A DNA stretch of 64,000 nt from Frankiaceae bacterium (GTDB lineage Bacteria; Actinomycetota; Actinomycetes; JADGOV01). The position numbers were made by a program, and so were the translations under genes. Below the pieces are notes generated by a model, which was not told the origin of the DNA, did no database searches, and was given only the letters and a program-made list of their open reading frames with translations. Below are positions 4,568 to 47,322 of this stretch, piece by piece (the stretch's first letter is position 1; every line of letters starts with the position of its first letter). Location: positions 1,076 to 65,075 of the forward strand of contig JADGOV010000003.1 of NCBI GenBank assembly GCA_017882785.1. Direction: 5' to 3'.

Positions 4568-5785
4568 TCACCGTTCGACGAGGTCGAAGACCTCGTGCCA
4601 CTGCCGCAGGATCTCCACCGGAGCGAACCGGCGGATGTTCCGCCGCGCCGCCGCCCCCATCCGCTGCCGCAGGTCCGCGTCCTCGATCAAGCGGCAGATT
4701 GCCCCGGCCAGCGCCGCGGTGTCCCGAGGTGGGACCACCAGGCCGTCGGCGCCGTCGGCGATGATTTCGCGGATGCCGGGTGCGCAGTCGAAACTGACGC
4801 ACGGCACCCCGCAGGCCATGGCCTCGGCGAGAACCAGCGGCAGTCCCTCGAAGTCCGAGGACATCGCGAAGATGGAGCTGGCCAGCAGCCGAGCCTGGAC
4901 CTCGGTCGTCGGGCCGCCGACGGAGACCGCCGCGCCGAGCCCGAGCGCGTCGACCTGCTCGCGCAGGGCCGACTGCAGGGGGCCCTCACCGACCAGCTGC
5001 AACCGCCAGTCCGGGTGCCGGCGCCACACCAGGGCGAAGGCGTCGATCAGAGCACGCTGATTCTTCTGCTCGTGGTAGCGACCCACGTTGATCACGGTCT
5101 TGGCGGACAGATCCGATCGCCGGTCCGGATACATCGTGAGCGGGTTGTGCAGCACGCCGACGTTGTTGAACCCCTCCCGTTCGAACATGTCGGCGTCGTG
5201 CTGGGTGAGGAGTAGGAATAGGTCGACGTCGCGGTACGTACGACGCATGCGCGTGTAGCGAGCAGAACCGCGCGACGCCGGTGTCAGTCCTCGGGATGCC
5301 TCGTACGACTCGTGGCTCTGCGTGATCACTCGCAGGTGGCTCGTGTCCGCCTCGTGCACCCAGTCCATGGCGAAGGCCTGGGTACAGATCACGATGCCGT
5401 CCGGCACGGACCTGAAGCGCTCAGACAGCCGGTCGACTGCTGCCCGGCGCAGTCGTCGGCGGTGGCGTTCCCGGCGCCGGGACCGCAGGTTGAGCCGATC
5501 CCGCAGCGTTCTCGGCCGCCACGCCGGCGGAGCGGGCTGGCCGTAGAGCACGGTGGTCCGGTAGGTGTCGCCGGGCGCGTAGGACAGTGCGCTCGGGTGC
5601 GGCATGATGCCGATGAGTTCCACGTTGTGACCGGCCGCGGCGAAGGTGGCGGCCAGGTTGTGGGCCACCCGCTGCAGGCCGCCCATTTCCTCGAGATTGT
5701 TCGCCACCAGGAACAGGTTGCGCCGCCGCCCCCCGACGGCCATGGTCGGTGCGCCAGTCTCCTCAGCGGTCGCCTGAGCCGTCAT
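4568..5785 (-). CDS. Glycosyltransferase family 4 (GT-B, retaining)
   Basis: C-terminal EGLPLVLAEAMACGVPCVSFDCAPGIREII is a GT4 signature. ATGA overlap with the upstream GT2-TagF gene. Confidence 0.85.
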   Translation of the reverse strand: MTAQATAEETGAPTMAVGGRRRNLFLVANNLEEMGGLQRVAHNLAATFAAAGHNVELIGIMPHPSALSYAPGDTYRTTVLYGQPAPPAWRPRTLRDRLNLRSRRRERHRRRLRRAAVDRLSERFRSVPDGIVICTQAFAMDWVHEADTSHLRVITQSHESYEASRGLTPASRGSARYTRMRRTYRDVDLFLLLTQHDADMFEREGFNNVGVLHNPLTMYPDRRSDLSAKTVINVGRYHEQKNQRALIDAFALVWRRHPDWRLQLVGEGPLQSALREQVDALGLGAAVSVGGPTTEVQARLLASSIFAMSSDFEGLPLVLAEAMACGVPCVSFDCAPGIREIIADGADGLVVPPRDTAALAGAICRLIEDADLRQRMGAAARRNIRRFAPVEILRQWHEVFDLVER

Positions 5786-10852: not shown

Positions 10853-10884
10853 GCCAGTCTCCTACCCAGTCGACCTATTCGTGA

Positions 10885-12210: not shown

Positions 12211-12259
12211 CGGGGGAGCGTACTGACGGGATGCGGCCTGGGGCGGGCAGAATCGGCAT

Positions 12260-19246: not shown

Positions 19247-20758
19247 ATGCCTGCCTTGGAGGCTTCGGTGCCGCAGACGCCGCCGCAGACGCCGGCGCGT
19301 CCCGGGCTTCCCCCGGCGCTCGACCCACGCCCTGATGCGGATCCTCCCCGGCACTCGGGGCGCCGCCGTGTCGGGCGCGTGCTGCGCTGGGGCGCCATTC
19401 TCACTTCCGTCTTCCTCCTGCTGGCCAGCACCGCGCTGTATCTCGGATTTCGGCACTTCGACGGCAAGCTGACGCGCACCAACATCCGCTTGCCGCAGGA
19501 CGCCTCCGGGCCGTCCGCGGGCGCGGACGGGACGGCGCAGAACTTTCTCATCGTCGGATCTGACACCAGGGAGGCACCGGGTACGCAGAAGTTCGGGGCC
19601 AGCAAGGACAGCGCTCGTTACGTCGGCGGTCAGCGCTCCGACACGGTCATGTTGATGCACGTCCCCGCTGGGCGCGCCAAGGCGACGATCATCTCCTTCC
19701 CTCGCGACTCGTGGGTGGCGATCCCCGCCTTCACCGACGCGAAGGGCGTCGCGCATCCCGCCCACCATCAACGGATCAACAGCGCTTTTTCCGTCGGCGG
19801 TGCGCCGCTGCTCGTCCAGGTGCTGCAGAACATGTCCGGAATGCGGGTCGACCACTATGTGCAGGTCGACTTCGCCGGCTTCCAGCAGATCGTCGACGCG
19901 CTCGGCGGGGTGACCCTCTGCGTAAAGACCACTCGCAACGACCAGGACAGCGGCGACTTCCTGACCGCGGGCACCCACAAGGTCAACGGCAAGCAGGCGC
20001 TCGCCTTCGCCCGTGACCGCAAGAGCTTCCCCACCCAGGATCTGGCTCGCATCAAGGACCAGCAGTATTTTCTGTCCGTGTTGTTACACAAGGTTCTCTC
20101 CGCCGGCACGCTGGCCAACCCGCTCAAGATCAACGCTCTGCTCAACGCGGTCACCAGCGCCACCACCGTCGACCGGGACCTGTCGATCAACGACATGCGA
20201 AAACTGGCGCTGCGGATGCGCCACCTCGACCCCGCCCACGTGGCGCTGGTCACGGTGCCGGTCCAGGGAGACGAGAGAATCGCGGGTCAATCCGTGCTGG
20301 TCCTGGACCGGGCGAAGATGACGGCGCTGTTCGCCGATCTCAAGGACAACACGTCGTCGGGTGGATCGAGCGCGGTGACCGTGCCGGTGGCGCCGTCCGC
20401 GATCTCCGTGGACGTCCTCAACGGCTCCGGCCGGGCTGGCCTCGGCGCGCGGGCCACCGCCGATCTGAGCAACGAGGGTTTCCGGGCGCGATTGGGCGGC
20501 AACGTCGGCAGCGGCGCCACCTCGACAGTCGTCCGCTACGGCGCCGGCGCCGGTGACCAGGCCCGCAGCGTCGCCGCGGCTCTCCCGGGGTCCACCGTCA
20601 CCCAGGCTGCGTCCGCGTCGGCCGGGTCCGTCATGGTCGTCCTGGGCAGCAGTTACTCGGGCACCCGCGCGGTGCACGCCCGTGGGGCCCCGAGTTCCTC
20701 AGGTACGGCGGCGGACAGGACCACCGCGGCCGCATCGGCCAACGGTTGCGGCCAGTGA
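19247..20758 (+). CDS. LCP family (LytR-CpsA-Psr) ligase with LytR_C domain, Lcp1/Rv3267-like
   Basis: FLIVGSDTRE...RSDTVMLMHV...ISFPRDSWV...HQRINSAF, a TM anchor, and synteny with the TIGR03089 gene downstream. Confidence 0.85.
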   Translation: MPALEASVPQTPPQTPARPGLPPALDPRPDADPPRHSGRRRVGRVLRWGAILTSVFLLLASTALYLGFRHFDGKLTRTNIRLPQDASGPSAGADGTAQNFLIVGSDTREAPGTQKFGASKDSARYVGGQRSDTVMLMHVPAGRAKATIISFPRDSWVAIPAFTDAKGVAHPAHHQRINSAFSVGGAPLLVQVLQNMSGMRVDHYVQVDFAGFQQIVDALGGVTLCVKTTRNDQDSGDFLTAGTHKVNGKQALAFARDRKSFPTQDLARIKDQQYFLSVLLHKVLSAGTLANPLKINALLNAVTSATTVDRDLSINDMRKLALRMRHLDPAHVALVTVPVQGDERIAGQSVLVLDRAKMTALFADLKDNTSSGGSSAVTVPVAPSAISVDVLNGSGRAGLGARATADLSNEGFRARLGGNVGSGATSTVVRYGAGAGDQARSVAAALPGSTVTQAASASAGSVMVVLGSSYSGTRAVHARGAPSSSGTAADRTTAAASANGCGQ

Positions 20759-21569: not shown

Positions 21570-22409
21570 TCAGACGCTGGAGGCCTCATCGAGCAAGTGG
21601 TGCTCGAACCCTTCGGGGTCGTGTCGCTGCTGGTAGGCGTCCACCACGGCGTCCGCGTCGCCGTCCAGGACGATCTGGCCCTTTTCCAGCCAGATGGCCC
21701 GGTTGCAGGTCTCCCTGATCACCCCGAGACCGTGACTGACCAGGAAGACCGTGCCCGCCTCGTCGCGCAGTTCCCGGATGCGTTTCTCGCTCTTGCGCCG
21801 GAATTCCGCATCACCGGTGGCCAGCGCCTCGTCGATGAGCAGGACCTCGTGGGTCTTAGCCGCTGCGATGGCGAAACGCAGGCGGGCGCCCATCCCCGAG
21901 GAATAGGTGTTCATCGGCAGCGAGATGAACTCACCGATGCCGGAAAAGTCCACGATGCTGTCATAGACCTCCCGCACCTCCTCCGGCGTCATGCCCATGG
22001 CCAGGCAGCCCAGCACCACGTTGCGCTCGCCGCTCATCTCGTTCATCATCGCGGCGCCGACGCCGAGCAGCGAGGGCTGACCCTGGGTGAAGATGACGCC
22101 CTTCTGCGGAGCCATCAGACCGGCGACGCCACGCAACAGCGTGGACTTGCCGGAGCCGTTCGGGCCGATCAGCCCCACGGCTTCGCCGCGGTGGGCGGTC
22201 AGGCTGACACCGCGGACTGCGTGGATCTCACGTATGACACTCTGCTTGTTGCCGCGCAACATGCCGAACAGTGCTGTCGGCGCGTTGCGCCGGGAGTGGC
22301 GGCCGGCCAACCGGTAGGTCAGGTGCACGTCGTCCACGATCACGGTTGGCACGCTGCTGTCCGGCGGCGATGCAGGGACGCCGAACTGATCTTGGCTACC
22401 CTCAGCCAC
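21570..22409 (-). CDS. ABC transporter ATP-binding protein, polysaccharide/teichoic-acid exporter type (TagH/Wzt-like)
   Basis: Walker A GPNGSGKST, signature YSSGMGARL, Walker B VLLIDEALATGD. GTG start at 22409 overlaps the permease stop. Confidence 0.85.
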   Translation of the reverse strand: MAEGSQDQFGVPASPPDSSVPTVIVDDVHLTYRLAGRHSRRNAPTALFGMLRGNKQSVIREIHAVRGVSLTAHRGEAVGLIGPNGSGKSTLLRGVAGLMAPQKGVIFTQGQPSLLGVGAAMMNEMSGERNVVLGCLAMGMTPEEVREVYDSIVDFSGIGEFISLPMNTYSSGMGARLRFAIAAAKTHEVLLIDEALATGDAEFRRKSEKRIRELRDEAGTVFLVSHGLGVIRETCNRAIWLEKGQIVLDGDADAVVDAYQQRHDPEGFEHHLLDEASSV

Positions 22410-23295
22410 GCCCGTACTCCTCCTCGGCCCGCCAGAAGAAGATGAATCCAACGATGAACATCACTACCGCCCAGACAACCCCGAGTTGCCACTGGACCCG
22501 GAAGGTGTCGCGATGTTTGAGCAGTGCGTCCCGCACCAACTCCACGTAGACCGCGCCGGGATTGATCTCGAGCAGTCGGCGTACGAGTTCGCTGTGGATG
22601 TGCTCGGAGAAGATCGTGATGCTGTAGAAGATTCCGGAGATATAGAGCCAGGTACGCAGCATGAACGGCAGGATCTGGGAGGTGTCCGGGATCCGGGCGC
22701 CGACCCGGGCGAAGATCAGAGCGCAGCCGAGCGCGAAAAAGGACTCCAGCGCGACCGCCGGCACGACCAGCAGCCAGCGCAGGGACGGCCGCTCGCCGTT
22801 GAGCAGGATGATGGGGACCAACACGACAAGAGACGTCAGAAGCTGCTGCAGAGCGATCACCGTGGTGGCTACCGGTAGCGTTGCCCGGGGAAAGTGCAAG
22901 GAGCGGGTCAGCCCGAGATTGGCCGTCACCGCTCGCGACCCGGCAAGGATCGAGCTCTGCATGTAGTAGAAGACGAAGATCCCGACGACCAGGAAACTGA
23001 TGTAGTTGGGGATGCCACGACTTGTCTTGAGGATCAAGCCGAAGATCAGGTAATAGACCGCGGCGTTGAGCAGTGGAGTCAACAGCTGCCAGAACTGGCC
23101 GAGGAAGCTGCTCGAGTACCCGATGGCGTTGTAGGCCCGGGCGAAGGCCACGACGAAGTACCGACGTCCCCAGAGGTCGCGGATGTAGGTGAGAAGTGGG
23201 GGACGCGCGCCCGCGCGGGCCATGCCGTAGCGCGCCGCTGTCTCTGCGGCGGACGAGGAGGCCGGCACCGGCGCCGTGGCCTGGACGCTAGTCAC
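22402..23295 (-). CDS. ABC-2 type transporter permease (TagG/Wzm-like)
   Basis: Six hydrophobic helices. YIRDLWGRRYFVVAFARAYNAI is an ABC-2 N-terminal pattern. The start may be the internal Met at 23223. Confidence 0.8.
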   Translation of the reverse strand: MTSVQATAPVPASSSAAETAARYGMARAGARPPLLTYIRDLWGRRYFVVAFARAYNAIGYSSSFLGQFWQLLTPLLNAAVYYLIFGLILKTSRGIPNYISFLVVGIFVFYYMQSSILAGSRAVTANLGLTRSLHFPRATLPVATTVIALQQLLTSLVVLVPIILLNGERPSLRWLLVVPAVALESFFALGCALIFARVGARIPDTSQILPFMLRTWLYISGIFYSITIFSEHIHSELVRRLLEINPGAVYVELVRDALLKHRDTFRVQWQLGVVWAVVMFIVGFIFFWRAEEEYGRG

Positions 23296-23439
23296 GACTA
23301 ACGACGGTACGGCATCTCCTGGTCCTCGCGGCCCGCGACGGGCAGCCCGTGGTCAGGTTCCTGCGGGTCCCGCGGCTCCGGTCAGCCGACTTACCCCGAC
23401 TCGGGCGCGCCCACTACGGGTGCCCTGTTCGGTGACGGC

Positions 23440-24457
23440 TTACCCGGTGATCCGGATGGGGCTGGTGAGGAAGCCCATCGCCCAACAGCCATGCATCGTG
23501 AGGAAGATGGCGGGCAGCTGGACCCATCCTCGCGTCGGCAACCCTCGCCCGATCCAGGCGGCGCTGGCGAGGACGAGAACGCCGTAGCCGACGGGGGCCA
23601 GCAGCCCGACGGGGTGACCCAGCAGCGCCAGCCCGCCACCGGCGGCCAATCCGAGAAGGGTGCACGGCGCTGCAAGGTAGCGGACCGAGGCGGTCTGGGG
23701 GTACTGCCGCACCAACGCCCGCCGCCAGCGCCCGTAGTGGAAATACTGTCGCCCGAGCGCGCGCAGGGTGGACCGAGGACGGTAGATCACCTGCAGGTCG
23801 GGGGTGAACCAGACCACCCCGCCCGAGCGTCGGATCCGGTAGTTCAACTCCCAGTCCTGGGCTCGCTCGAACCGTTCGTCGTAGCCGCCGTAGCGCTCCA
23901 GCACCTCACGTGGGAAGACCCCGAGATAGACGCTGTCCGCCGGGCCCGCGGTGCCACCGATGTGGAAAGCCGCACTTCCGACCCCGATCGGGGAGCGCAT
24001 GGCCCGGGCGACCGCGAGACTGAACGCATCGTCGCCCTCCGCGGCCATGATCCCTCCGACGTTGTCCGCACCGGTGGTCGCGAGCACCGAGACAGCCACG
24101 CGGACATAGTCGCCGGTGATGAGCGCGTGCCCGTCGAGGCGCACAATGATCGAATGACGCGTGGCCGCGACTGCCGCGTTCAGCCCGGTCGGCGTGTGGC
24201 CCGATGGATTGGTGACGAGTCGCACCCGTGGGTCCTCGGCGGCGAGGCGACTGGCGATCGCGTCTGTGCCGTCCCGGGAGGGACCGAGCGCCAGGATGAC
24301 TTCGATGTCCCCGGCATAGTCCTGGCTCAGTGCCCGCTCGACGGCCGAGGCCAGGTGGCGTTCCTCATTGAGGACCGGCATCACGACCGACACGGCGGGC
24401 CACTCCCCGACGGCCGCGAGGGGCTCGGGTGGGGTCGGGGCAGGCATCGCCTGCAGC
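23440..24457 (-). CDS. Glycosyltransferase family 2 with C-terminal TM anchor
   Basis: VSVVMPVLNEERHLASAVERALSQDY...ILALGPSRDGT...LDGHA is the GT2 DXD-type signature. The start was trimmed to ATG 24457 (MPAPTPPEP). Confidence 0.8.
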
Positions 24458-24577
24458 CTAGCGGCGGCGATCGGCACGACGGCGGGACACCACCAAGTGC
24501 GGAGCGTCGGTCTCGGGGGTTTCGCGGGGCCGTCGGGTAGGTTGCGGGAAGGTTGAGGAAAGGGCGCGGCTTCCCTC

Positions 24578-26398
24578 ATGCGTGGTCGGTCCCGTGTCGG
24601 TGAGAGTGGCCGGCGGCGACACTCGGCGGTGCGGAAGACGACCGCGGTGTTGTTCGCGACAGCGGCCGACGAGTCCGGCGGACCCGCTGCTTGCCTGCCG
24701 CTCGGTGACATGCCACTGCTGTCCCGCCTCATCCGCCAGCTGATCCAGCTCGGCGTCGACGAGGTCACGGTCGTGACCCGACCCGAGTGGGAGCCGATCT
24801 GCACCCCGGCCGCCGTCGCTGAGAGCCTGGTTCCGGTCCGTGTCCACGTCTGCGCCGATCTGGCCGATGATCTGCGGGCGGTCGCTCGGGTTGCGGCGGC
24901 GGCAACTGATCGTCTTCTGCTGGCATCCGGCGACACCGCCGCCCATCGGGAAGCCCTTGCCGGGTTGCTCCGGGACCCGCGAGTGAGTACTGCTGCGCTG
25001 AGCGCGAGGGCAGCATCTGAGGGGAGTTGGGCCGCGCCCCTGCGTGTCGCACGTGGCCGGATTGTCAGCGCAGGGTCGGCCTTCCACCAGGTCCGGGCCG
25101 CCAATGCGGTCTCACTCGGTGTGCTGCTCGTCGATCCGGCTGACGCGGCGGTGCTTGCCGCCGCCGCCTCGGAGCTGGCCAGGCTCAGCACGCCGCCGTA
25201 CCCGCTGGACTGGTTGGCTCAGTCCGGGGCGAGGGAGGCGGGGGCGAGGTCCGATGACGTCGCCGCGCTGCTGCTGGTGGGGCTGGTGCGGGCCAACGTC
25301 CGGGTCGGCACGGTCGACAGGCGAACGTTGTTCCTGACCCGTCCGACCTCCGTGGCGTCGGCGGCGGCCGCGGCCGCTGCGATGTCCGACATCGACGAGG
25401 ACCGGGTGCTCCTCGACTCGGCCGTCAAGGCGAGTGACGGCTTCTTCACGACCTTCTTCGTCAGCCCGTACTCGCGTTACCTGGCGCGCTGGGCGGCCCG
25501 TCGTGGTTGGACACCCAACCAGGTCACCACGCTGTCCATGCTTGTCGGCGTGCTGGCCGCCGCCGCCTTCGCCACCGGCAGCCGGCTGGGCCTCATCGCC
25601 GGAGCAGTCCTGTTGCAGGTGGCTTTCACCTTCGACTGCGTCGACGGCCAGATCGCCAGATACACCCGGACGTTCTCCGCACTCGGTGCGTGGCTGGACT
25701 CGGTGTTCGACCGGGGCAAGGAGTACCTGGTCTACGCCGGCCTCGCGCTCGGATCGGTCCGCGGGTTCCACGACGACGTGTGGCTGCTGGCTGCCCTCGC
25801 GCTGTCGTTGCAGACTGTCCGGCACACGGTGGATTTCTCCTACGCGGCCGGCCAGCATCGCAACATCACGATTGTTGCCCGCCCGTCGCTGGCGGTCGCC
25901 GTTGATGCCGTGGTGGCCGTGGACGGCGATGTCCCAGCTGATGTCCCGCCCGGCGTGCCGGCTGATGTCCCGGCCGACCCGGCTCGCCGGGCGCCGGTGC
26001 TGCTCGGGGTCGGCGCCGGGGTCGGTGGCGTCGGCTCAGCGGCCCGGCCCGCCGAGGCCGCGACCTCGGCCGCCACGGTGAGGGCCGCCACGGTGAGGGC
26101 CGGCGCCGCCAAACTGGGCTCCTCAGGCCCTGGAACGGCGCGGATGTCGGTCGCCCCCGGCTCCGTCTCGGCCGTCGGCCGCCGGGCGATCCGGCTGTCC
26201 CGAGCATTGGAGGGGCGCGGCTGGATGCGGTACGGGAAGAAGATCCTTGTGCTGCCGATCGGTGAACGGTTCGCGCTGATCTCGATCACTGCCGCGGTCG
26301 CCTCGCCGCGGACGACGTTTGTCGCGCTCCTTGGCTGGGGCTCGGTCGCCGCGGTCTACAGCATTACCGGCAAGACACTGCGGTCGGTGGCGAGATGA
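24578..26398 (+). CDS. Bifunctional nucleotidyltransferase / CDP-alcohol phosphotransferase membrane protein (IPCT-DIPPS-like architecture)
   Basis: N-terminal NTP-transferase-like region (TAVLFATAADESGG...MPLLSRLI). C-terminal CDP-OH_P_transf motif DCVDGQIAR-x8-G-x3-D-x3-D with several TM helices. The start is uncertain. Confidence 0.75.
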   Translation: MRGRSRVGESGRRRHSAVRKTTAVLFATAADESGGPAACLPLGDMPLLSRLIRQLIQLGVDEVTVVTRPEWEPICTPAAVAESLVPVRVHVCADLADDLRAVARVAAAATDRLLLASGDTAAHREALAGLLRDPRVSTAALSARAASEGSWAAPLRVARGRIVSAGSAFHQVRAANAVSLGVLLVDPADAAVLAAAASELARLSTPPYPLDWLAQSGAREAGARSDDVAALLLVGLVRANVRVGTVDRRTLFLTRPTSVASAAAAAAAMSDIDEDRVLLDSAVKASDGFFTTFFVSPYSRYLARWAARRGWTPNQVTTLSMLVGVLAAAAFATGSRLGLIAGAVLLQVAFTFDCVDGQIARYTRTFSALGAWLDSVFDRGKEYLVYAGLALGSVRGFHDDVWLLAALALSLQTVRHTVDFSYAAGQHRNITIVARPSLAVAVDAVVAVDGDVPADVPPGVPADVPADPARRAPVLLGVGAGVGGVGSAARPAEAATSAATVRAATVRAGAAKLGSSGPGTARMSVAPGSVSAVGRRAIRLSRALEGRGWMRYGKKILVLPIGERFALISITAAVASPRTTFVALLGWGSVAAVYSITGKTLRSVAR

Positions 26399-27045
26399 TC
26401 GGCCCGGCCGATGTGGTGGCCGATTACCGCGACGACGGGCCGGTGGCGATTCTCCTCGGGCGCACCGGCGGCGACCGCGTCCGGGTGGACCCGGTGCTGC
26501 TCACGGTTGCCGGCCTGCTGCCGCTCGTCGCGATCGTCGTGGGCAGCGACCAGGCCCCGGGCACCATCCCGCCCGGCCTCGGCCTGGCCATCGGCTGGCT
26601 GGTGCTCTGCGCCGGCGTGGCCGCGGGTCGGCCGGCCAGCACCCGGCTCGGCTGGCTGGTCCCGCCGCTGTTGCGCCTGGCCGAGTACGCCGTCCTGCTC
26701 GTGCTGGTGCTGCTGACCGACGGCCAGCCGCTGCCCGTATGCTTTGCACTACTTTCCGTACTGTCATTTCACCACTACGACACGGTGTACCGGATTCGTG
26801 CCCGGCGGGCAGCGCCGCCCATGTGGGTGCGGCTGGCTGGCGGCGGCTGGGACGTCCGGGTGCTGGCGGCCTACGTGTTGCTGGTGATTGGTGGGCTGGC
26901 GGTGGGCATGGGGGCGGCGGCCGTCCTGCTCGGTGTGCTCTACGTCGGAGAGAGCGTCGCAAGCTGGCTGGCGCCTGGTCCGGCACTGGCCGCGAGCGCG
27001 GAATTGGGCATCGACGACGGGGCCGAGGAAGGGGCCGACGAGTGA
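26395..27045 (+). CDS. Hypothetical polytopic membrane protein (DUF5941-like)
   Basis: 216 aa with 5-6 hydrophobic helices. GTGA-coupled to the downstream nucleotidyltransferase. Confidence 0.55.
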   Translation: MIGPADVVADYRDDGPVAILLGRTGGDRVRVDPVLLTVAGLLPLVAIVVGSDQAPGTIPPGLGLAIGWLVLCAGVAAGRPASTRLGWLVPPLLRLAEYAVLLVLVLLTDGQPLPVCFALLSVLSFHHYDTVYRIRARRAAPPMWVRLAGGGWDVRVLAAYVLLVIGGLAVGMGAAAVLLGVLYVGESVASWLAPGPALAASAELGIDDGAEEGADE

Positions 27046-27773
27046 TCGGGATGGTCCTCGCCGCCGGTGCCGGGCGCAGGCTGGAGCCCCTGACCAAGGA
27101 CCTGCCGAAGACGTTGCTGCCGATCGACGGGGACACCACGATCCTGGACAACACGTTGGCCAACCTCGCGCAGGTCGGCATCACCGAGGTTGTCATCGTC
27201 ACCGGCTTCGCCGCTGAGCGGATCGCGCGGGTGGCGCCGATGCTGGCGGACAAGCACGGGTTGCGCCTGAGCCAGGTCTACAACCCCCGGGCGGAGACGT
27301 GGAACAACGCGTATTCGTTGTGGTTGGCCCGCGGCGCGTTCGCCAGACCCGTCCTGCTCGTCAACGGCGACACGGTGCACCCGGTCAGCGTGGAGAAGGC
27401 GGTGCTGGCCGCACGCGGGCCGGAGGTGGTGCTCGCGGTCGACACTGTCAAGACGCTGGCCGAGGAGGAGATGAAGATCCTCCTCAAGCCCGACGGCACG
27501 CTGGCGCGGATCAACAAGGCGGTCGATCCGGCGGTCGCGGCGGGAGAATACATCGGCGTCACCATGATCGAACCCACGGCCGGTCCGGCGCTCGCGGCAG
27601 CGCTGATGGCGACCTGGATGCGCAACCCCGATCTGTACTACGAAGACGGCTACCAGGAGTTCGTCGACCGCGGCGGCGCCGTAGCGGTCGCACCCATCGG
27701 GGACGTCGACTGGGTTGAGGTCGACGACCCGCGTGACCTGGATCGTGCTCGGGAGATCGCATGCCGTTACTAG
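27042..27773 (+). CDS. Sugar/alditol-phosphate nucleotidyltransferase (cytidylyltransferase, LicC/IspD-like NTP_transferase fold)
   Basis: MVLAAGAGRRLEPLTKDLPKTLLPIDGDTTILDNTL is a G-x-G-x-R NTP-transferase signature. Confidence 0.75.
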   Translation: MIGMVLAAGAGRRLEPLTKDLPKTLLPIDGDTTILDNTLANLAQVGITEVVIVTGFAAERIARVAPMLADKHGLRLSQVYNPRAETWNNAYSLWLARGAFARPVLLVNGDTVHPVSVEKAVLAARGPEVVLAVDTVKTLAEEEMKILLKPDGTLARINKAVDPAVAAGEYIGVTMIEPTAGPALAAALMATWMRNPDLYYEDGYQEFVDRGGAVAVAPIGDVDWVEVDDPRDLDRAREIACRY

Positions 27774-28816
27774 CCCGGATGCTGATCAGCCCGCTCTTCA
27801 TCGACATTCGACCGGGAGCGATCGAGGACCTGGGCGATCTGCTTGCCGACCGGCGGATCTCGGCCGCCGGCCACGTCGCCGTCGCGGTCGGGCCGGGGCA
27901 GGGCGAGCGGATTGTGGAAACGCTGGGCGCGTCCCTCTGCAACGCCGACGTGGTCACCGTCACCGGCGCCTCGCTGGACGCCGCTGGGGAGTTGCAGGCC
28001 AAGCTCCAGTCCCGCTCCTATGACGCGCTGGTCGGGATCGGCGGCGGTAGGACGCTGGACGTGGCGAAGTACGCCGCGACCCGACTGGCATTGCCGATGG
28101 TGGCCGTGCCCACCAACCTCTCCCATGACGGCATCGCCTCGCCGGTGAGTTCACTGGAACACGAGGGGGGAAAGGGCTCCTTCGGGGTGTCCATGCCGAT
28201 CGCGGTCGTGGTCGACGTCGACTACATCCGCGCCGCGCCGGTGCGTCAGGTCCGCGCGGGCATCGGGGACGCGGTGAGTAATCTGTCCGCCATCGCCGAC
28301 TGGGAGCTGGCCGCCGCAGAGCGGGGAGAGCCGGTGGACGGAATCGCCGTGACCTTTGCCCGAACCGCCGCAGAGGCACTTCTGCGGCGGACGGACACTG
28401 TCTCCGACGATGCCTTCCTCATCTGCCTCGCCGACGCGCTCGTCCTGTCCGGGATGGCGATGGCTGCCGCCGGGTCCAGTCGGCCCTGCAGTGGGGGGGA
28501 TCATGAGTTCCTGCACGCGGTGGATCGGTTCTTCCCCGGCACGGGCAACCACGGTGAGCTGGCCGGCGTAGGGGCCATGTTCTGCACGTACCTGCGTGGG
28601 GACACGGACCGCCTCGCCCAGCTGGACCGGTGTCTGCGACGGCATGACCTTCCGCGGACCGCCGCCGATCTCGGCTTGTCCCGCGAGCAGTTCACCACCG
28701 CCGTTCTCGCCGCGCCGGCCACCCGGCCGGACCGGTACACCATCCTCGAGCACCTCAACCTGACCCCGGGCGAGATCCGCGCCCGGGTGGAGGACTACGA
28801 GGCGAGCTATGGCTAA
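27761..28816 (+). CDS. sn-Glycerol-1-phosphate dehydrogenase-like enzyme (AraM/EgsA family, iron-containing alcohol dehydrogenase superfamily)
   Basis: GIGGGRTLDVAKYAATRLALPMVAVPTNLSHDGIASPVSSL closely matches the AraM/EgsA NAD(P)-binding and PTxxSHDGIxSP motif. Confidence 0.7.
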   Translation: MPLLARMLISPLFIDIRPGAIEDLGDLLADRRISAAGHVAVAVGPGQGERIVETLGASLCNADVVTVTGASLDAAGELQAKLQSRSYDALVGIGGGRTLDVAKYAATRLALPMVAVPTNLSHDGIASPVSSLEHEGGKGSFGVSMPIAVVVDVDYIRAAPVRQVRAGIGDAVSNLSAIADWELAAAERGEPVDGIAVTFARTAAEALLRRTDTVSDDAFLICLADALVLSGMAMAAAGSSRPCSGGDHEFLHAVDRFFPGTGNHGELAGVGAMFCTYLRGDTDRLAQLDRCLRRHDLPRTAADLGLSREQFTTAVLAAPATRPDRYTILEHLNLTPGEIRARVEDYEASYG

Positions 28817-29648
28817 GCCGGCCATGCTGCCCGAGGCGGGGCCCACCGAGGCGGGGCCCACCGAGGCCGGGCCCACCGAGGCCGGGCCGAGCATCACGCG
28901 GATCCGCGAGGTGGGGCAGCCCGACTCCGTCATCGGCCGGGTCAACGCCGAACACTGGGCGGGCCGGCTCTACATGCGACGCTTCTCGCCGTACGCCACG
29001 CGACTCCTGCTGCGGACGTCCATCTCGGCGAACGGCGTGACGTGGCTGATGATCGTCAGTGGCGTACTCGCTGCCGCCGTCCTCACCCTGCCCGGGGTCG
29101 TGGCCGCCGTTGGCACGGTGCTGTTGGTGCAGTGCCAGCTGCTGTTCGACTGTGCGGACGGGGAGGTGGCCCGGTGGCGGGACACGCTGTCGCCGGCGGG
29201 GGTGTACCTGGACCGGATCGGACACTACTCGACGGAGGCGGCACTGGCGGTCGCGCTGGGCATCCGTGCCGACGGCGGGTGGGGCTCGATCGACGGCTGG
29301 ACCACGCTGGGGCTCTTGGCCGCCGTGCTCGTGTTGCTGGTCAAGAGCGAGACCGACCTGGTGGACGCGGCCCGTGCCCGGGGCGGGCGAGCGGTCCTTG
29401 CGGACACCGGCTCCCCACCGGGCGCGGCAGGGATGCACCGGCTCCGCCGGACCATCGGCTTCCTGCCGTTCTTTCGCATGTTCATCGCCGTGGAGTTCTC
29501 TTTCCTGGCGCTCGCCGCGGCACTCGTCGATGCCACGGCCGGCAGCCTGGTCGGGACCCGCACACTGCTGCTGGTGTTCCTGCCGGCCGTCGCGATCACG
29601 GCCGCCGGGCACCTGGCCAGCGTGCTCGCCTCGAGTCGGTTGCGATGA
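28809..29648 (+). CDS. CDP-alcohol phosphotransferase family membrane protein
   Basis: DCADGEVAR-x7-AG-x3-D-x3-H motif and multiple TM helices. The N-terminus carries the tandem repeat EAGPTEAGPTEAGPTEAGPS. Confidence 0.75.
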   Translation: MAKPAMLPEAGPTEAGPTEAGPTEAGPSITRIREVGQPDSVIGRVNAEHWAGRLYMRRFSPYATRLLLRTSISANGVTWLMIVSGVLAAAVLTLPGVVAAVGTVLLVQCQLLFDCADGEVARWRDTLSPAGVYLDRIGHYSTEAALAVALGIRADGGWGSIDGWTTLGLLAAVLVLLVKSETDLVDAARARGGRAVLADTGSPPGAAGMHRLRRTIGFLPFFRMFIAVEFSFLALAAALVDATAGSLVGTRTLLLVFLPAVAITAAGHLASVLASSRLR

Positions 29649-30544
29649 CCGCGATGACCGCATCGCCGACGCTGGCGGTCGAGCTGCCGTCCTACGGTGC
29701 GGTCCTGCTGACCCAAGGCACGCGGCCCCGAGAGCTCGCGACCGCGATCGCGTCCCTGCGCGCGCAGCGGGGCGTACGGCTCGACCTCGTCGTTGTCGGC
29801 AACGGCTGGCAGCCCGCCCCGTTGCCGCCGCAGGTGTCGGCAGTGGTGCTGCCTGACAACGTCGGCATTCCCGCCGGACGCAACGCCGGCGTGCCCGCGG
29901 TCGGCGGTGACCTGTTGCTGTTCCTCGACGACGACGCGAGCCTGCCGCAGCCGGACGCGTTGGCGCGACTCGCGGCAGTGTTTGCCGCAGATCCTTCCCT
30001 CGGCCTCGTGCAGCCGCGGGTGCAGGACCCGGAGGGCCGCCCGTCGCCGTCCCGGTGGGTTCCCCGGCTGCATCCGGGCGATCCGTCGCGAAGCAGTGAC
30101 GTGTGTGCCGTGTGGGAGGGTGCGGTTGTGGTCCGCCGCACGCTCTTCGAGGCCATCGGCGGCTGGGGGGCGCACTTCTTCTACGGACACGAGGGGATCG
30201 AGCTGGCCTGGCGGGTCTGGGACGCCGGGTTCCGGGTCCGCTACATCGGCGAGGTCACCGCGCACCACCCGGTCGTGGACCCCTGCCGCCACCACGACGC
30301 GTTGCGGTACCTGGCCCGCAACCGGGTGTGGCTGGCTCGGCGCAACCTGCCGTTGCCACTGGCCGCGGCGTACCTGCTGACCTGGTTCCTGCTCACGATC
30401 GCCAGGGCGTCACAGCCAGGCGCGATCCACGCCCTGCTGATCGGCTACCGCGACGGGTTCATCCAGCCCTGCGGGCCGCGTCGACCACTGCGTTGGCGAA
30501 CGGCCTGGCTGATGACGCGCGCCGGGCGACCGCCGGTCATCTGA
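29645..30544 (+). CDS. Glycosyltransferase family 2
   Basis: VLLTQGTRPREL...VVVGNG...LLLFLDDDASL is GT2 DXD-type. ATGA overlap with the upstream gene. Confidence 0.75.
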   Translation: MTAMTASPTLAVELPSYGAVLLTQGTRPRELATAIASLRAQRGVRLDLVVVGNGWQPAPLPPQVSAVVLPDNVGIPAGRNAGVPAVGGDLLLFLDDDASLPQPDALARLAAVFAADPSLGLVQPRVQDPEGRPSPSRWVPRLHPGDPSRSSDVCAVWEGAVVVRRTLFEAIGGWGAHFFYGHEGIELAWRVWDAGFRVRYIGEVTAHHPVVDPCRHHDALRYLARNRVWLARRNLPLPLAAAYLLTWFLLTIARASQPGAIHALLIGYRDGFIQPCGPRRPLRWRTAWLMTRAGRPPVI

Positions 30545-30693
30545 GGGGGCCGATCACGGCTCGCGCAGAAAGCCGCGCACTGCAGGCTACCTATCGGCGG
30601 CTGGACGTCGGTGATCCGCTGCTGCGGATCGAGGGCGACCTCAGCGGCGGCCCCGACGTTGCCTCCAGTGACGGTGCGTCCAGTGACGCGACC

Positions 30694-32418
30694 GTGTGGT
30701 TGGTCGCCCGGGCCCGGCGGAGCGGGGCCGAGGTGAGCGAGCCGGTGAGTGCCGCGGACGGTCGGTTCCGGACGGTGCTCGACGTGCGGCGACTCGCCGC
30801 CCAGGAAGTCGCCGGCGGCGTCTGGGACGTCTATCTGGCCACCGGTGCCGACCGGGCGAGACTCGCCGCCCCCTTCCCCGACCTGCCGCACCGCCACCGG
30901 GTGCTCGCCTATCCGACGTGCGCCGTGCAGTCCGCCGGCCTCCACTACGACGTGGGACCCTACGTCACGCTGGATGACCGACTGTCGATCGCCTGCACCG
31001 TCGGCGAGCTGCAACCGGCACCGCATCGGCCGGCCCGGTGGGCGAGGGGGCTGCGGCGCCGGTTCGGGCCTGCGCGGAAAGGGACGCGGAAAGGGACAAC
31101 GCCTCGGGCGCGGGCGGCTGGTCGAGGGCTCTCGGCCCTCGCCTTGCGGCTGCTCTACCGGGCGACGGCGCCGCCGCCGCTGCCGCCTGAGGGCCGGGCG
31201 CGCCCGGCCGGCCGGGTCTGCATCGTGTTGATGAACGCCTACGGCATGGGCGGCACGATACGCACAACCTTCACCCTCGCCGGGTACCTGGCCCGGACAG
31301 CGGACGTCGAGATCCTCAGCATGGTGCGGCACCGCGACCAGCCGTTCCTAGCGTTGCCCGCCGGCGTACGGCTGACTCCGCTAAACGATCTGATGGCGGC
31401 CGAGGTTGGGCGGGCTTGCGGGCTCGGCGCTGGCCTGCGTCGTCTGCTGGCGCGCGTCCCCAGCGTGCTGACGCACGAAGAGGACTACGCCTGGGACACG
31501 TGTTCCGCACTCACCGACCTGCGACTGCTGCGTCGGCTGCGGGCGCTGCCGCCCTCGTCGGTGCTGATCACCACCCGGCCGGCTTTCAACCTCATCGCCG
31601 CCCGTCACGCTCCGCCTTGGATCACCACCATCGGCCAGGAGCACCAGCACATCGCCGCGCATCGAGCCGGGCTGGCCGCGGAGGTTAGTCGTCACTACTC
31701 GCGGCTGGACGCCTTGACCGTGCTGACCCGGGCCGACGAGCATGACTACCGTCGGCTGCTGGCCGGACAGCGCACCCGGGTGGCCCGGATCCCGAACGCC
31801 GTACCAGACCCAGACGCAGACCCCCCGGCTACTTCTCCGCCGCGGCGGCAGAAGGTGGTCGTGGCTGCCGGACGGCTCGTCCGGCAGAAGGGTTTCGACC
31901 TGCTCATCGACGCCTTCGCGCTGGTTGCCGCCCTGGAGCCCGGGTGGACGCTGCGGATCTATGGCAGCGGCGTCAAGGCGCCGGCGCTGCGAGCGAAGAT
32001 CGACGCTGCCGGGCTCTACAACGCGGTCTTTCTGGTCGGCTCGACCGACCGGCTCGGCGCGGAGCTGTCCAAGGGCTCGATCTTCGCGCTCAGCTCGCGG
32101 TATGAGGGGTTCGGCATGGTCCTGCTGGAGGCGATGAGCGCCGGCCTGCCCGTTGTGAGCTTCGACTGCCCCAACGGCCCGCGCGAGATCCTCACCGACG
32201 GCCGGGACGGCGTGCTGGTCCCCAACGGGGACGTGGCGGCCTTTGCGGCAGCGCTGCTCGACCTCATCCGGGACGAGGCCCGCCGTGAGCGAGTGGCGGC
32301 CGCCGGCCGTCAGACGGCGCGGCGTTACAGCCAGGCCGCGGTGGGCGCGCGGTGGACGGCACTGCTGGCCGAGCTCAGAGCGCTAGATTTCAGCGGGACA
32401 GTTCGGCCGCCATCGTGA
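30694..32418 (+). CDS. Glycosyltransferase family 4 with an N-terminal extension of unknown function
   Basis: C-terminal EGFGMVLLEAMSAGLPVVSFDCPNGPREIL is a GT4 signature. The nearest canonical start, GTG 30694, is used. Continuous coding-like sequence runs from 30545 with no canonical start. Confidence 0.65.
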   Translation: MWLVARARRSGAEVSEPVSAADGRFRTVLDVRRLAAQEVAGGVWDVYLATGADRARLAAPFPDLPHRHRVLAYPTCAVQSAGLHYDVGPYVTLDDRLSIACTVGELQPAPHRPARWARGLRRRFGPARKGTRKGTTPRARAAGRGLSALALRLLYRATAPPPLPPEGRARPAGRVCIVLMNAYGMGGTIRTTFTLAGYLARTADVEILSMVRHRDQPFLALPAGVRLTPLNDLMAAEVGRACGLGAGLRRLLARVPSVLTHEEDYAWDTCSALTDLRLLRRLRALPPSSVLITTRPAFNLIAARHAPPWITTIGQEHQHIAAHRAGLAAEVSRHYSRLDALTVLTRADEHDYRRLLAGQRTRVARIPNAVPDPDADPPATSPPRRQKVVVAAGRLVRQKGFDLLIDAFALVAALEPGWTLRIYGSGVKAPALRAKIDAAGLYNAVFLVGSTDRLGAELSKGSIFALSSRYEGFGMVLLEAMSAGLPVVSFDCPNGPREILTDGRDGVLVPNGDVAAFAAALLDLIRDEARRERVAAAGRQTARRYSQAAVGARWTALLAELRALDFSGTVRPPS

Positions 32419-34345: not shown

Positions 34346-34397
34346 GACCCGACCCTAGTTGGCCGACTGTGTGACACCGCTCTGGGACAGTGGAGGG

Positions 34398-47290: not shown

Positions 47291-47322
47291 GCAGCGAAGA
47301 TTACGCTCGGGCTGTGCCGAGC

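What the first reader, a model, noticed from the sequence alone, without database searches (positions are those of the whole stretch)
21570..32418. Accessory wall-glycopolymer cluster built around an AraM/EgsA-type sn-glycerol-1-phosphate dehydrogenase
Eleven co-directional or convergent genes encode the following:
- a TagG/TagH-like ABC exporter
- three GT2 and one GT4 glycosyltransferase
- a polytopic membrane protein
- two NTP-transferase (cytidylyltransferase) modules
- two CDP-alcohol phosphotransferases
- a protein with the AraM/EgsA glycerol-1-phosphate dehydrogenase signature (GIGGGRTLDVAKY...PTNLSHDGIASP).
Classical teichoic acid pathways use TagD (sn-glycerol-3-phosphate) and TagF/TarL polymerases. 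Here the activating and transfer steps are done by NTP_transferase-fold and CDP-alcohol-phosphotransferase-fold enzymes next to a G1P dehydrogenase. That suggests an alditol-phosphate polymer or headgroup with archaeal-type sn-1 glycerol stereochemistry, exported by a Wzm/Wzt-type pump. Two LCP ligases sit just upstream to attach it. I do not recognise this combination as a described pathway.
Basis: partly seen in the sequence, partly recalled or inferred. Interest (0 to 1): 0.8.

Follow-up and report, generated by a model that had tools for sequence, protein, structure and literature searches.

The report
Actinomycete glycerol-1-phosphate envelope-polymer gene cluster
A gene cluster conserved across actinomycetes links an archaeal-type glycerol-1-phosphate dehydrogenase to a nucleotide-activating enzyme, membrane phosphotransferases, sugar transferases and an exporter, so these bacteria probably build a cell-envelope polymer from the mirror-image form of glycerol phosphate by a route I found tested nowhere in the papers I could search.

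Summary
The cluster is real, but it is not an oddity of this genome. It holds ten genes, not eleven, and two GT2 genes, not three. Seven of them are joined by overlapping stop and start codons.

- **Dehydrogenase:** the 27761-28816 protein groups with glycerol-1-phosphate dehydrogenases (G1PDH), not with glycerol dehydrogenases or dehydroquinate synthases.
- **Core triad:** the gene order nucleotidyltransferase, G1PDH, CDP-alcohol phosphotransferase recurs in Streptosporangiales, Streptomyces and uncultured actinomycetes. In a probable archaeon the first two are fused into one protein.
- **Hidden third module:** the "polytopic membrane protein" (DUF5941) is predicted to have a CDP-alcohol phosphotransferase fold but lacks the motif.
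- **Degenerate domain:** one of the two nucleotidyltransferase domains has lost its signature.
- **TagF is not replaced:** a TagF-like enzyme lies 13 kb upstream. Its orthologue sits inside the cluster in relatives. No TagD was found.

Best reading: a teichoic-acid-type polymer pathway in which G1PDH plus a LicC/IPCT-like transferase supply CDP-glycerol, probably the sn-1 form. The stereochemistry and the acceptors are inferred, not shown. I found no functional study in the searchable literature. I rate it a new variant of a known kind, of moderately high interest.

The parts
4568..5785 (-). GT4 glycosyltransferase, partner of the TagF-like gene
   Evidence: Pfam Glycos_transf_1 135 bits. Orthologues at 49% identity lie at the 3' end of the G1PDH cluster in L038, L039 and L040.
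5782..8619 (-). Fusion of GT2 with a TagF-like CDP-glycerol glycerophosphotransferase, about 945 aa. The start was moved to the ATG at 8619.
   Evidence: PF04464 344 bits and PF00535 108 bits. The start follows the frame plot and the length of relatives. Orthologues at 48-50% identity lie directly after the second GT2 in L038-L040.
12964..14454 (+). LCP (LytR_cpsA_psr + LytR_C) glycopolymer ligase 1
   Evidence: Pfam 155 and 58 bits.
19247..20758 (+). LCP (LytR_cpsA_psr + LytR_C) glycopolymer ligase 2
   Evidence: Pfam 154 and 62 bits. An LCP gene is next to the module in most related loci.
21570..22451 (-). ABC exporter ATPase, TagH/Wzt-like. Gene callers start it about 14 codons later, near 22409.
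   Evidence: NCBIfam TagH models 178 and 162 bits, galactan Wzt 160 bits, all below the equivalog cut-offs. Gene call of 279 aa on L001.
22402..23295 (-). ABC-2 type permease, TagG/Wzm-like
   Evidence: PF01061 35 bits; galactan Wzm model 57 bits. About six hydrophobic segments.
23440..24447 (-). GT2 glycosyltransferase with a C-terminal membrane segment (GT2a)
   Evidence: PF00535 71 bits. A precomputed PF13506 hit is recorded on the identical gene in L001. Conserved next to an LCP gene in relatives.
24578..26398 (+). Degenerate nucleotidyltransferase-like cytosolic domain plus a CDP-alcohol phosphotransferase with the full DxxDGxxAR...G...D...D motif (g5)
   Evidence: PF01066 47 bits, PF12804 31 bits. 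Best solved structure AF2299, 1e-10. Motif DCVDGQIAR..GAWLDSVFD. The GxGxR and Lys signature is missing.
26395..27045 (+). DUF5941 membrane protein with a predicted CDP-alcohol phosphotransferase fold but no signature motif (g6). It is fused to the g5 homologue in Streptomyces and in L038 and L039.
27042..27773 (+). LicC/IPCT-like nucleotidyltransferase with an intact LAAGAGRRL...PK signature (g7). Proposed CTP:glycerol-1-phosphate cytidylyltransferase.
   Evidence: PF00483 48 bits. Full-length match to the IPCT domain model. Best solved structures 4jd0, then LicC 1jyk. 30% identical over 234 aa to the N-terminal domain of the fusion protein P0368.
27761..28816 (+). G1PDH-type (EgsA/AraM family) NAD(P)H dehydrogenase (g8)
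   Evidence: NCBIfam G1PDH 261 bits against GldA 67. PDB 4rgq at 1e-46. GGG loop and putative Zn ligands D170, H248 and H264 are present.
28809..29648 (+). Second CDP-alcohol phosphotransferase, a variant that lacks the fourth Asp of the motif (g9)
   Evidence: PF01066 24 bits. AF2299 at 8e-5. Motif DCADGEVAR..GVYLDRIGH. The fourth position is His in 31 of the loci compared and Ala in 2, followed by a conserved Glu.
29645..30544 (+). GT2 glycosyltransferase (GT2b), part of the conserved core module
   Evidence: PF00535 33 bits. Orthologues at 43-55% identity follow the g9 homologue in almost all loci, including Streptomyces.
30493..32418 (+). GT4 glycosyltransferase with an N-terminal extension of about 250 aa of unknown function. 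The TTG start is uncertain.
   Evidence: PF00534 130 bits at residues 447-607. Aligned over residues 32-630 in L007. The gene call in L002 overlaps GT2b by 52 nt, as here.

Best explanation
This is the local copy of a widely conserved actinomycete locus. It makes and exports a polymer or lipoglycan of the cell envelope that contains glycerol phosphate, of the teichoic acid type. All steps below are inferred from homology and gene context.

1. The G1PDH-type enzyme (g8) reduces dihydroxyacetone phosphate to sn-glycerol-1-phosphate.
2. The LicC/IPCT-like nucleotidyltransferase (g7) condenses that product with CTP. This gives CDP-glycerol with the sn-1 configuration. The pair takes the place of GpsA plus TagD.
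3. Membrane CDP-alcohol phosphotransferases pass glycerol phosphate to a membrane-bound acceptor. These are g9 and g5 together with its pseudo-partner g6. I think they act as primer or anchor-forming enzymes.
4. The soluble GT2-TagF fusion with its GT4 partner, GT2a, GT2b and the long GT4 extend and glycosylate the chain.
5. The TagGH-like ABC pump exports the product.
6. The neighbouring LCP enzymes ligate it to peptidoglycan.

The gene content, the conserved order and the fusion are shown. The substrates, the stereochemistry, the acceptors and the product are inferred.
For: - **g8 is G1PDH-type.** It scores 261 bits against the G1PDH model and 67 against glycerol dehydrogenase. M. jannaschii G1PDH is the best solved relative at 1e-46, and the metal-ligand positions are kept.
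- **g7, g8 and g9 are translationally coupled** (coordinates). They keep this order in Sphaerisporangium, Thermopolyspora, Nonomuraea gerenzanensis, Streptomyces fungicidicus and metagenome bins.
- **Rosetta-stone fusion.** P0368 carries a g7-like domain (30% identity, E 1e-29) joined to a G1PDH domain (315 bits). A CDP-alcohol phosphotransferase and glycan genes follow it, on a 29% GC, probably archaeal contig.
- **The g7-like and G1PDH pair persists** down to 32-49% g7 identity in other contigs.
- **CDP-alcohol phosphotransferases need a CDP-linked donor**, and the best structural relative of g5 and g9 is AF2299.
- **TagF-like enzymes, which use CDP-glycerol, recur with the module.** They are inside the cluster in L038-L040, next to the stand-alone G1PDH in Nonomuraea, next to it in Sphaerisporangium beside a TarI/TarJ-like fusion, and 13 kb upstream here.
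- **No TagD homologue** in the window or the related loci then held.
- **TagGH-like exporter and two LCP ligases** are present.
Against: - No member of this actinomycete clade has been assayed, as far as I could find.
- g8 (261 bits) and the fused homologue (315 bits) fall below NCBIfam's equivalog cut-off of 413. An altered substrate is therefore possible.
- The nucleotide and the alcohol used by g7 cannot be read from sequence. Its full-length profile match is to inositol-1-phosphate cytidylyltransferase.
- g9 lacks the fourth motif Asp, which is reported essential in studied enzymes (my recollection of the AF2299 and DIPPS papers). Three Sphaerisporangium g5 homologues lack it too. Which module is catalytic is therefore unclear.
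- A TagD elsewhere in the genome cannot be excluded.
- The Streptomyces module has no LCP, TagF, GT2a or GT4 beside it. Attachment to the wall is therefore not a fixed feature of the module.
- No priming phosphoglycosyltransferase is in the window.
Confidence: 0.5

Rival explanations
1. Inositol-phosphate or mixed phosphodiester chemistry, as in the IPCT/DIPPS and glycerophosphoinositol pathways. Here g7 would activate inositol-1-phosphate or another polyol phosphate. The CDP-alcohol phosphotransferases would join it to glycerol-1-phosphate. The result would be a phosphodiester headgroup or repeat, not a plain glycerol phosphate transfer from CDP-glycerol.
For: The only full-length NCBIfam match of g7 is to the IPCT domain of the bifunctional IPCT/DIPPS model (residues 3-238, 48 bits). 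The best models for g5 are archaetidylinositol-phosphate synthase at 66 bits and IPCT/DIPPS at 57 bits. The best solved relative of g7 is 4jd0, which I recall as the Thermotoga IPCT. The build of g5, a nucleotidyltransferase-like domain plus a CDP-alcohol phosphotransferase, mirrors IPCT/DIPPS.
Against: All scores are far below the curated cut-offs (48 and 57 against 580). No inositol-1-phosphate synthase or phosphatase lies in the module in any locus. The fusion of the nucleotidyltransferase to G1PDH points to the G1PDH product as its substrate. The link to TagF-like enzymes points to CDP-glycerol.
Confidence: 0.15
2. A membrane lipid pathway, not a wall polymer. The module would make a glycerophospho(glyco)lipid. 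One example is a Kennedy-type transfer of glycerol-1-phosphate from CDP-glycerol to diacylglycerol or a glycolipid. That would give the natural sn-1' headgroup of phosphatidylglycerol. Another example is an archaeal-like G1P lipid.
For: CDP-alcohol phosphotransferases are classically phospholipid synthases. The Streptomyces module has no LCP or TagF beside it and sits between idi and the hopanoid genes. An evolutionary study suggests that G1PDH-bearing actinobacteria may make archaeal-like lipids (PMC6431249). A G1PDH paralogue lies next to a PlsC-like acyltransferase in L046.
Against: A TagGH-like polymer exporter and a GT2 are fixed parts of the module, even in Streptomyces. LCP genes are adjacent in most other lineages. 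No GGGPS, UbiA-type or CDP-archaeol synthase gene is in the module. A lipid-anchored polymer of the lipoteichoic acid type would satisfy both this rival and the main reading.
Confidence: 0.15
3. A CDP-2-glycerol pathway of the pneumococcal Gtp1/Gtp2/Gtp3 type. A reductase would make glycerol from dihydroxyacetone, a kinase would make glycerol-2-phosphate, and a LicC-like transferase would make CDP-2-glycerol. In that case there is no sn-1 stereochemistry at all.
For: The pairing of a reductase with a LicC-like nucleotidyltransferase resembles gtp1 and gtp2. My description of that pathway is from memory of Wang et al. 2010, which is not in the library. [quoted passage not shown] The second-best solved relative of g7 is LicC.
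Against: No kinase or Gtp3-like gene occurs in the module in any of the loci examined. g8 is much closer to archaeal G1PDH than to any other characterised enzyme. I could not compare it with Gtp1 directly.
Confidence: 0.07
4. The dehydrogenase is unrelated to the neighbouring genes, for example a catabolic polyol dehydrogenase. On this view the cluster is an ordinary polysaccharide locus fed by a TagD encoded elsewhere.
For: Homologues stand alone in Desulfovibrio and Clostridium plasmids with no glycan context. The rest of the genome could not be searched for TagD.
Against: The gene overlaps both neighbours. The order is kept across orders of actinomycetes. The gene is fused to the nucleotidyltransferase in one lineage.
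Confidence: 0.05

Closest known systems
Bacillus subtilis 168 / Staphylococcus wall teichoic acid pathway (TagO-TagA-TagB-TagD-TagF-TagGH, LCP ligases)
   Same: A TagF-like PF04464 enzyme, a TagGH-like ABC exporter and LCP ligases are present. Assembly would take place in the cytoplasm from a CDP-activated polyol phosphate.
   Different: No TagD-type cytidylyltransferase was found. A G1PDH plus a LicC/IPCT-fold transferase sit in its place, so the activated glycerol is probably the opposite enantiomer. Three membrane modules with the CDP-alcohol phosphotransferase fold have no counterpart in the classical pathway. No TagO, TagA or TagB was recognised in the window.
Archaeal and hyperthermophile CDP-alcohol solute pathways: IPCT/DIPPS (PDB 4mnd), AF2299 (4o6m), and glycerophosphoinositol synthesis from CDP-glycerol
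   Same: A nucleotidyltransferase-fold activating enzyme is paired with a membrane CDP-alcohol phosphotransferase. g5 has the same two-domain build. AF2299 and DIPPS are the best sequence and fold matches for g5, g6 and g9.
   Different: All scores are far below the family cut-offs. The cytosolic domain of g5 is degenerate. The context is glycosyltransferases, an exporter and wall ligases, not solute synthesis. No inositol-phosphate synthase or phosphatase is present.
EgsA (archaeal) and AraM (B. subtilis) sn-glycerol-1-phosphate dehydrogenases
   Same: Same fold, same NAD(P)H loop and same metal-ligand positions. Published phylogenies place actinobacterial homologues in the G1PDH clade (PMC6431249, PMC5059525).
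   Different: EgsA and AraM feed ether-lipid synthesis through GGGPS or PcrB. Here the neighbours are a nucleotidyltransferase and phosphotransferases. The protein scores below the NCBIfam equivalog cut-off, and the actinomycete enzyme has not been assayed as far as I could find.
TagF-like capsule polymerases of Gram-negative bacteria (Cps3D, Cps7D and similar)
   Same: The upstream 945-aa protein fuses a glycosyltransferase domain to a TagF-like domain. These polymerases have the same build and make poly(glycosyl-glycerol phosphate). [quoted passage not shown]
   Different: Those systems use a TagD-type cytidylyltransferase and sn-glycerol-3-phosphate in vivo. Their export is by the group 2 capsule machinery.
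Pneumococcal Gtp1/Gtp2/Gtp3 CDP-2-glycerol pathway
   Same: A reductase is paired with a LicC-like nucleotidyltransferase inside a glycan locus.
   Different: That pathway needs a glycerol-2-phosphotransferase, which is absent here. Membrane CDP-alcohol phosphotransferases are not part of it. The details are from my memory of Wang et al. 2010.

Membership tests
G1PDH (EgsA/AraM) | The best-scoring profile is G1PDH and not glycerol dehydrogenase or dehydroquinate synthase | tested here: met
   NF002022 261 bits; GldA 67; AroB 25. PDB G1PDH entries 1e-46 to 1e-40; GldA about 1e-12; DHQS about 1e-6.
G1PDH (EgsA/AraM) | Reaches NCBIfam's curated equivalog score | tested here: not met
   261 bits against a cut-off of 413. 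The fused homologue P0368 reaches 315 bits.
G1PDH (EgsA/AraM) | Glycine-rich NAD(P)H loop and the Asp/His/His metal ligands | tested here: met
   GIGGGRTLD at residues 92-100. D170, H248 and H264 align with conserved residues of M. jannaschii G1PDH. Which residues are the ligands comes from my memory of the Aeropyrum and Methanocaldococcus work.
G1PDH (EgsA/AraM) | Stereospecific reduction of DHAP to sn-glycerol-1-phosphate | not testable with these tools
   Needs an enzyme assay.
Classical TagD/TagF wall teichoic acid locus | TagD-type (PF01467) glycerol-3-phosphate cytidylyltransferase | tested here: not met
   tblastn with B. subtilis TagD found nothing better than E 3 in the window and the 34 loci then held. 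No such domain appeared among the ORFs scanned. The rest of the genome was not searchable.
Classical TagD/TagF wall teichoic acid locus | TagF/TagB-type PF04464 glycerophosphotransferase | tested here: met
   Window 5782-8619, 344 bits. Orthologues lie inside the cluster in L038-L040.
Classical TagD/TagF wall teichoic acid locus | TagGH-type ABC exporter and an LCP ligase | tested here: met
   TagH models 162-178 bits, below the equivalog cut-offs; ABC-2 permease. Two LCP+LytR_C proteins.
Classical TagD/TagF wall teichoic acid locus | TagO/TagA linkage-unit enzymes in the locus | tested here: not met
   No such domain appeared among the window ORFs scanned. They may be encoded elsewhere in the genome.
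CDP-alcohol phosphotransferase (PF01066) | Full signature D1xxD2GxxAR...G...D3xxxD4 | tested here: met
   Met by g5 (DCVDGQIAR..GAWLDSVFD). Not met by g9, where the fourth position is His here and in 31 of the loci compared and Ala in 2. Absent from g6.
CDP-alcohol phosphotransferase (PF01066) | Six-helix membrane fold of the family | tested here: met
   [not shown]
Bifunctional IPCT/DIPPS | Catalytically intact cytidylyltransferase domain fused to the phosphotransferase, and the curated family score | tested here: not met
   g5 scores 57 bits against a cut-off of 580. Its N-terminal domain lacks GxGxR and the PK lysine.
Pneumococcal CDP-2-glycerol pathway (Gtp1-3) | Glycerol-2-phosphotransferase (Gtp3) beside the reductase and the cytidylyltransferase | tested here: not met
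   No kinase-like gene in the module in any locus. A direct comparison with Gtp1 was not possible.

The most novel reading that the evidence does not exclude
The conserved seven-gene core is two CDP-alcohol phosphotransferase modules (one carrying DUF5941), the nucleotidyltransferase, G1PDH, a GT2 and the ABC pump. On this reading it is a bacterial route to CDP-sn-1-glycerol. It would assemble, inside the cell, a poly(sn-glycerol-1-phosphate) or glycosyl-glycerol-phosphate chain on a membrane anchor. That could be the long-sought LtaS-independent way in which Streptomyces, Thermobifida and other actinomycetes make lipoteichoic-acid-type polymers. It would also explain why a deep bacterial clan of G1PDH exists. 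The g7 family would then be a candidate for the glycerol-1-phosphate-preferring cytidylyltransferase activity seen in Archaeoglobus lysates, whose gene was reported as unidentified (PMC8262930).
Probability: 0.3. Interest if true: 0.85.

Novelty: new variant of a known kind. Interest (0 to 1): 0.62.

Why it matters
**What the field assumes.** Bacterial wall polymers are thought to take glycerol phosphate either as CDP-sn-3-glycerol (TagD) or from phosphatidylglycerol. A 2021 study states that free glycerol-1-phosphate and CDP-1-glycerol are probably absent from most bacteria (PMC8262930).

**What this module suggests.** A module present in about 92% of complete Streptomyces genomes, and in many other actinomycetes, would contradict that assumption.

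**What it would make testable.**
- It gives a function to the unexplained bacterial G1PDH clan discussed in studies of the lipid divide.
- It offers a concrete candidate for lipoteichoic acid synthesis in actinomycetes that lack LtaS, an open question since 2009-2011 (PMC3196553).
- It assigns a fold to DUF5941.
- It defines a CDP-alcohol phosphotransferase subfamily without the fourth motif Asp.

All of these can be tested in genetically tractable Streptomyces.

Tried and rejected
- **Literature.** Ten full-text searches found no functional study of this module. The terms included G1PDH with teichoic acid or actinobacteria, DUF5941, CDP-alcohol phosphotransferase with teichoic acid, CDP-1-glycerol, and LtaS with Streptomyces. 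The only mention is a 2026 Streptomyces synteny survey.
- **Papers not held.** Carbone 2015 (G1PDH structure), Wang 2010 (CDP-2-glycerol) and Kleinschnitz 2011 (SCO2997) were not in the library. I therefore could not check substrate-contact residues or compare with Gtp1.
- **No explicit tree.** I built no tree with glycerol dehydrogenase and dehydroquinate synthase sequences, because those sequences could not be fetched. Placement rests on profile and pairwise scores.
- **Genome scan.** It returned mainly Streptosporangiales, so it is not an unbiased survey.
- **Possible three-module fusion in L040.** It is probably an assembly indel. The same organism's L039 has two overlapping genes there. 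I did not use it as evidence.
- **'His is invariant in g9'.** This first impression was withdrawn after Streptomyces and Nonomuraea gerenzanensis showed Ala.
- **Assigning the archaeal phosphotransferase to the g9 type.** It is equally distant from g5 and g9.
- **RNA elements.** Rfam and tRNA scans of the window found nothing.
- **Stand-alone homologues.** The copies on Desulfovibrio and Clostridium plasmids were uninformative.

Full report
**What is in the sequence**

The window is about 70% GC, so I set the coding frames by third-position GC. I checked them against gene calls on metagenome contigs that carry the identical proteins. Between 21570 and 32418 there are ten genes.

On the minus strand:
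- a TagH/Wzt-like ABC ATPase
- an ABC-2 permease
- a GT2 with a C-terminal membrane segment

On the plus strand there are seven genes. Neighbouring genes overlap by 4, 4, 13, 8, 4 and about 52 nucleotides:
- g5, 606 aa, with a weak NTP_transf_3 domain plus CDP-OH_P_transf
- g6, DUF5941
- g7, NTP_transferase
- g8, Fe-ADH_2
- g9, a weak CDP-OH_P_transf
- a second GT2
- a 641-aa GT4

The exceptions are the counts: ten genes and not eleven, two GT2 and not three.

**The dehydrogenase**

g8 scores 261 bits on NCBIfam's G1PDH model. It scores 67 bits for glycerol dehydrogenase and 25 for AroB. Among solved structures, the G1PDHs of Methanocaldococcus (1e-46) and Pyrobaculum (1e-40) are far ahead of glycerol dehydrogenases (about 1e-12) and dehydroquinate synthases (about 1e-6). 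The NAD(P)H loop is conserved, and so are the positions that align with the metal ligands (D170, H248, H264).

Two caveats remain. The score is below the curated equivalog cut-off of 413, and I found no assay of any actinomycete member. Published phylogenies already place actinobacterial sequences in a deep bacterial G1PDH clan without giving them a role (PMC6431249 and PMC5059525).

**The core triad is conserved, and fused in one lineage**

The order g7-g8-g9 recurs in several groups:
- 15 Sphaerisporangium genomes and Thermopolyspora
- uncultured actinomycetes
- Nonomuraea gerenzanensis and Streptomyces fungicidicus, at 44-59% identity gene for gene

A search of 1.8 billion representative proteins found P0368. 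It is a 579-aa natural fusion of a g7-like nucleotidyltransferase (30% identity over 234 residues, E 1e-29) with a G1PDH domain (315 bits). Its gene lies on a 29% GC contig whose SecD and SecF best match archaeal-type models. A CDP-alcohol phosphotransferase follows it directly, and then come GT4, GT2 and a Wzx-like flippase. A g7-like gene also overlaps the start of the G1PDH homologue in two further, unrelated contigs.

This is the strongest evidence that the three enzymes act one after another.

1. *TagF is part of the system.* Window 5782-8619 encodes a fusion of GT2 with a TagF-like domain (PF04464, 344 bits), next to a GT4.
   - In three related loci from megabase-scale contigs, orthologues of exactly these two genes (48-50% identity) lie immediately after the second GT2 of the cluster.
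   - In several Nonomuraea genomes a stand-alone G1PDH homologue is directly preceded by a 950-aa TagF-like protein.
   - In Sphaerisporangium, a weak TagF-like gene and a TarI/TarJ-like CDP-ribitol synthase fusion sit inside the module.
   - No TagD homologue was found in the window or the loci.
   - So the module looks like a replacement for the supply of CDP-glycerol, not for TagF.
2. *The N-terminal domain of g5 is degenerate.* It lacks the GxGxR and Lys signature that g7 has. This resembles the non-catalytic cytosolic domain architecture of AF2299, which is the best solved relative of g5.
4. *g9 never has the fourth motif Asp.* The position is His in 31 of the loci compared and Ala in 2, always followed by a conserved Glu.

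**Distribution**

The cluster is not accessory. A 2026 pan-genome study finds the CDP-alcohol phosphotransferase family in 856 of 929 complete Streptomyces genomes, syntenic with tagG, tagH and araM (PMC13118837).

In S. fungicidicus the module is reduced to seven genes, listed here in functional order:
- the phosphotransferase fused to DUF5941
- the nucleotidyltransferase
- G1PDH
- the second phosphotransferase
- a GT2
- the ABC permease
- the ABC ATPase

These lie between idi/galE and the hopanoid genes. DUF5941 homologues carry names from Frankiales, Pseudonocardiales, Streptosporangiales and Thermoleophilia. The closest relatives of the window's own proteins are uncultured Sporichthyaceae, Mycobacteriales and Frankiales bins at 72-78% identity. 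Nothing points to Micromonosporaceae.

**Mechanism**

I propose this sequence:
1. DHAP is reduced to sn-glycerol-1-phosphate by g8.
2. That product is converted to CDP-glycerol by g7.
3. Glycerol phosphate is transferred to a membrane-bound acceptor by the phosphotransferase modules.
4. The chain is extended and glycosylated by the TagF-like fusion and the GT2 and GT4 enzymes.
5. The product is exported by the ABC pump.
6. It is ligated to peptidoglycan by LCP enzymes.

Gene content, synteny and the fusion are shown. Every substrate, and the stereochemistry, is inferred.

The rivals are these:
- inositol-phosphate chemistry (the full-length profile match of g7 is to IPCT)
- a phospholipid or glycolipid product
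- a pneumococcal-type CDP-2-glycerol route (no kinase is present)
- an unrelated dehydrogenase

**Novelty**

None of my ten full-text searches found a functional description. A 2021 paper on TagF-like polymerases states that CDP-1-glycerol is probably absent from bacteria. It also states that known glycerol-1-phosphate in surface polymers comes from other donors (PMC8262930). How actinomycetes that lack LtaS make lipoteichoic acid is an acknowledged open question (PMC3196553).

The library lacks most subscription-journal papers, so prior work may exist. I therefore rate this a new variant of a known kind: a teichoic-acid-type pathway with a different precursor supply and extra membrane transferases. 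Its interest is moderately high.

Noticed in passing
[not shown]
   Followed up: yes
window 28809-29648 (g9) and its orthologues in L007-L052: This CDP-alcohol phosphotransferase subfamily never carries the fourth motif Asp. The position is His in most, Ala in Streptomyces fungicidicus and Nonomuraea gerenzanensis, and Gly in the archaeal neighbour of the fusion protein. A conserved Glu lies four residues later. Three Sphaerisporangium g5 homologues also have Ala at that position.
   Followed up: partly
L041 10001-12553 (metagenome contig, 29% GC, archaeal-type SecDF): A natural fusion of NTP_transferase with G1PDH (P0368, 579 aa) is followed by a CDP-alcohol phosphotransferase. It lies in a glycan cluster with GT4, a radical SAM enzyme, GT2, a Wzx-like flippase and a PMT_2 protein.
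   Followed up: partly
L049 (Streptomyces fungicidicus NZ_CP023408, 192857-199912): In Streptomyces the seven-gene module lies directly between idi/galE and the hopanoid cluster (hpnC, hpnD, hpnE, shc, hpnH). The pan-genome paper reports this linkage in most genomes. Whether it has any functional meaning is unknown.
   Followed up: no
L046 8001-12754 (64% GC contig that carries an SsgA gene): A G1PDH paralogue (43% identity) is followed by a PlsC-like acyltransferase, a HAD hydrolase and a 676-aa Sulfatase-family protein. That is the Pfam family of LtaS. The genes sit beside PKS and P450 genes, so this may be a glycerol-1-phosphate-based lipid or natural-product pathway.
   Followed up: no
L027, L028, L031 (Nonomuraea), about 6600-11050: A second, stand-alone G1PDH homologue is directly preceded by a 950-aa protein. 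Its C-terminal 360 aa are TagF-like (PF04464, 321 bits) and its N-terminal 590 aa match no Pfam family.
   Followed up: partly
L009 3354-6606 (Sphaerisporangium viridialbum): Inside the module there is an IspD+SDR fusion (TarI/TarJ-like, a putative CDP-ribitol synthase) and a weak TagF-like protein. This suggests that both ribitol phosphate and glycerol phosphate are used there.
   Followed up: no
window 14485-16329 (minus strand): A polytopic membrane protein of about 614 aa, with about 12 hydrophobic segments, matches no Pfam family. Homologues at 34-40% identity lie near LCP genes in L020, L024, L033, L036 and L052. It may be a GT-C-like glycosyltransferase.
   Followed up: no
window 30493-31250 (N-terminus of the GT4): The GT4 has an N-terminal extension of about 250 aa with no Pfam match. 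The extension is conserved in L007.
   Followed up: no
window 3725-4564; 10885-12384; 17979-19067; 34359-36238; 53378-53989: Other envelope-sugar genes surround the cluster: a TylF-like O-methyltransferase, a UDP-glucose dehydrogenase, a long-form sugar-1-phosphate nucleotidyltransferase, RmlB, RmlD and RmlC.
   Followed up: no
window 8619-9015 and 8707-9921: The longest ORF of the TagF-like gene overlaps the PurK-like ATP-grasp gene by about 300 nt. The frame plot and the length of relatives put the true start at the ATG at 8619.
   Followed up: yes
window 149-3631; 47134-48831; 50695-53064; 59749-63468: These genes are unrelated to the finding: Tad/Flp pilus genes, a PdtaS-type histidine kinase, a sigma factor with an anti-sigma kinase, a nickel superoxide dismutase and a Kgd-type 2-oxoglutarate dehydrogenase. 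No tRNA or Rfam match occurs anywhere in the window.
   Followed up: no
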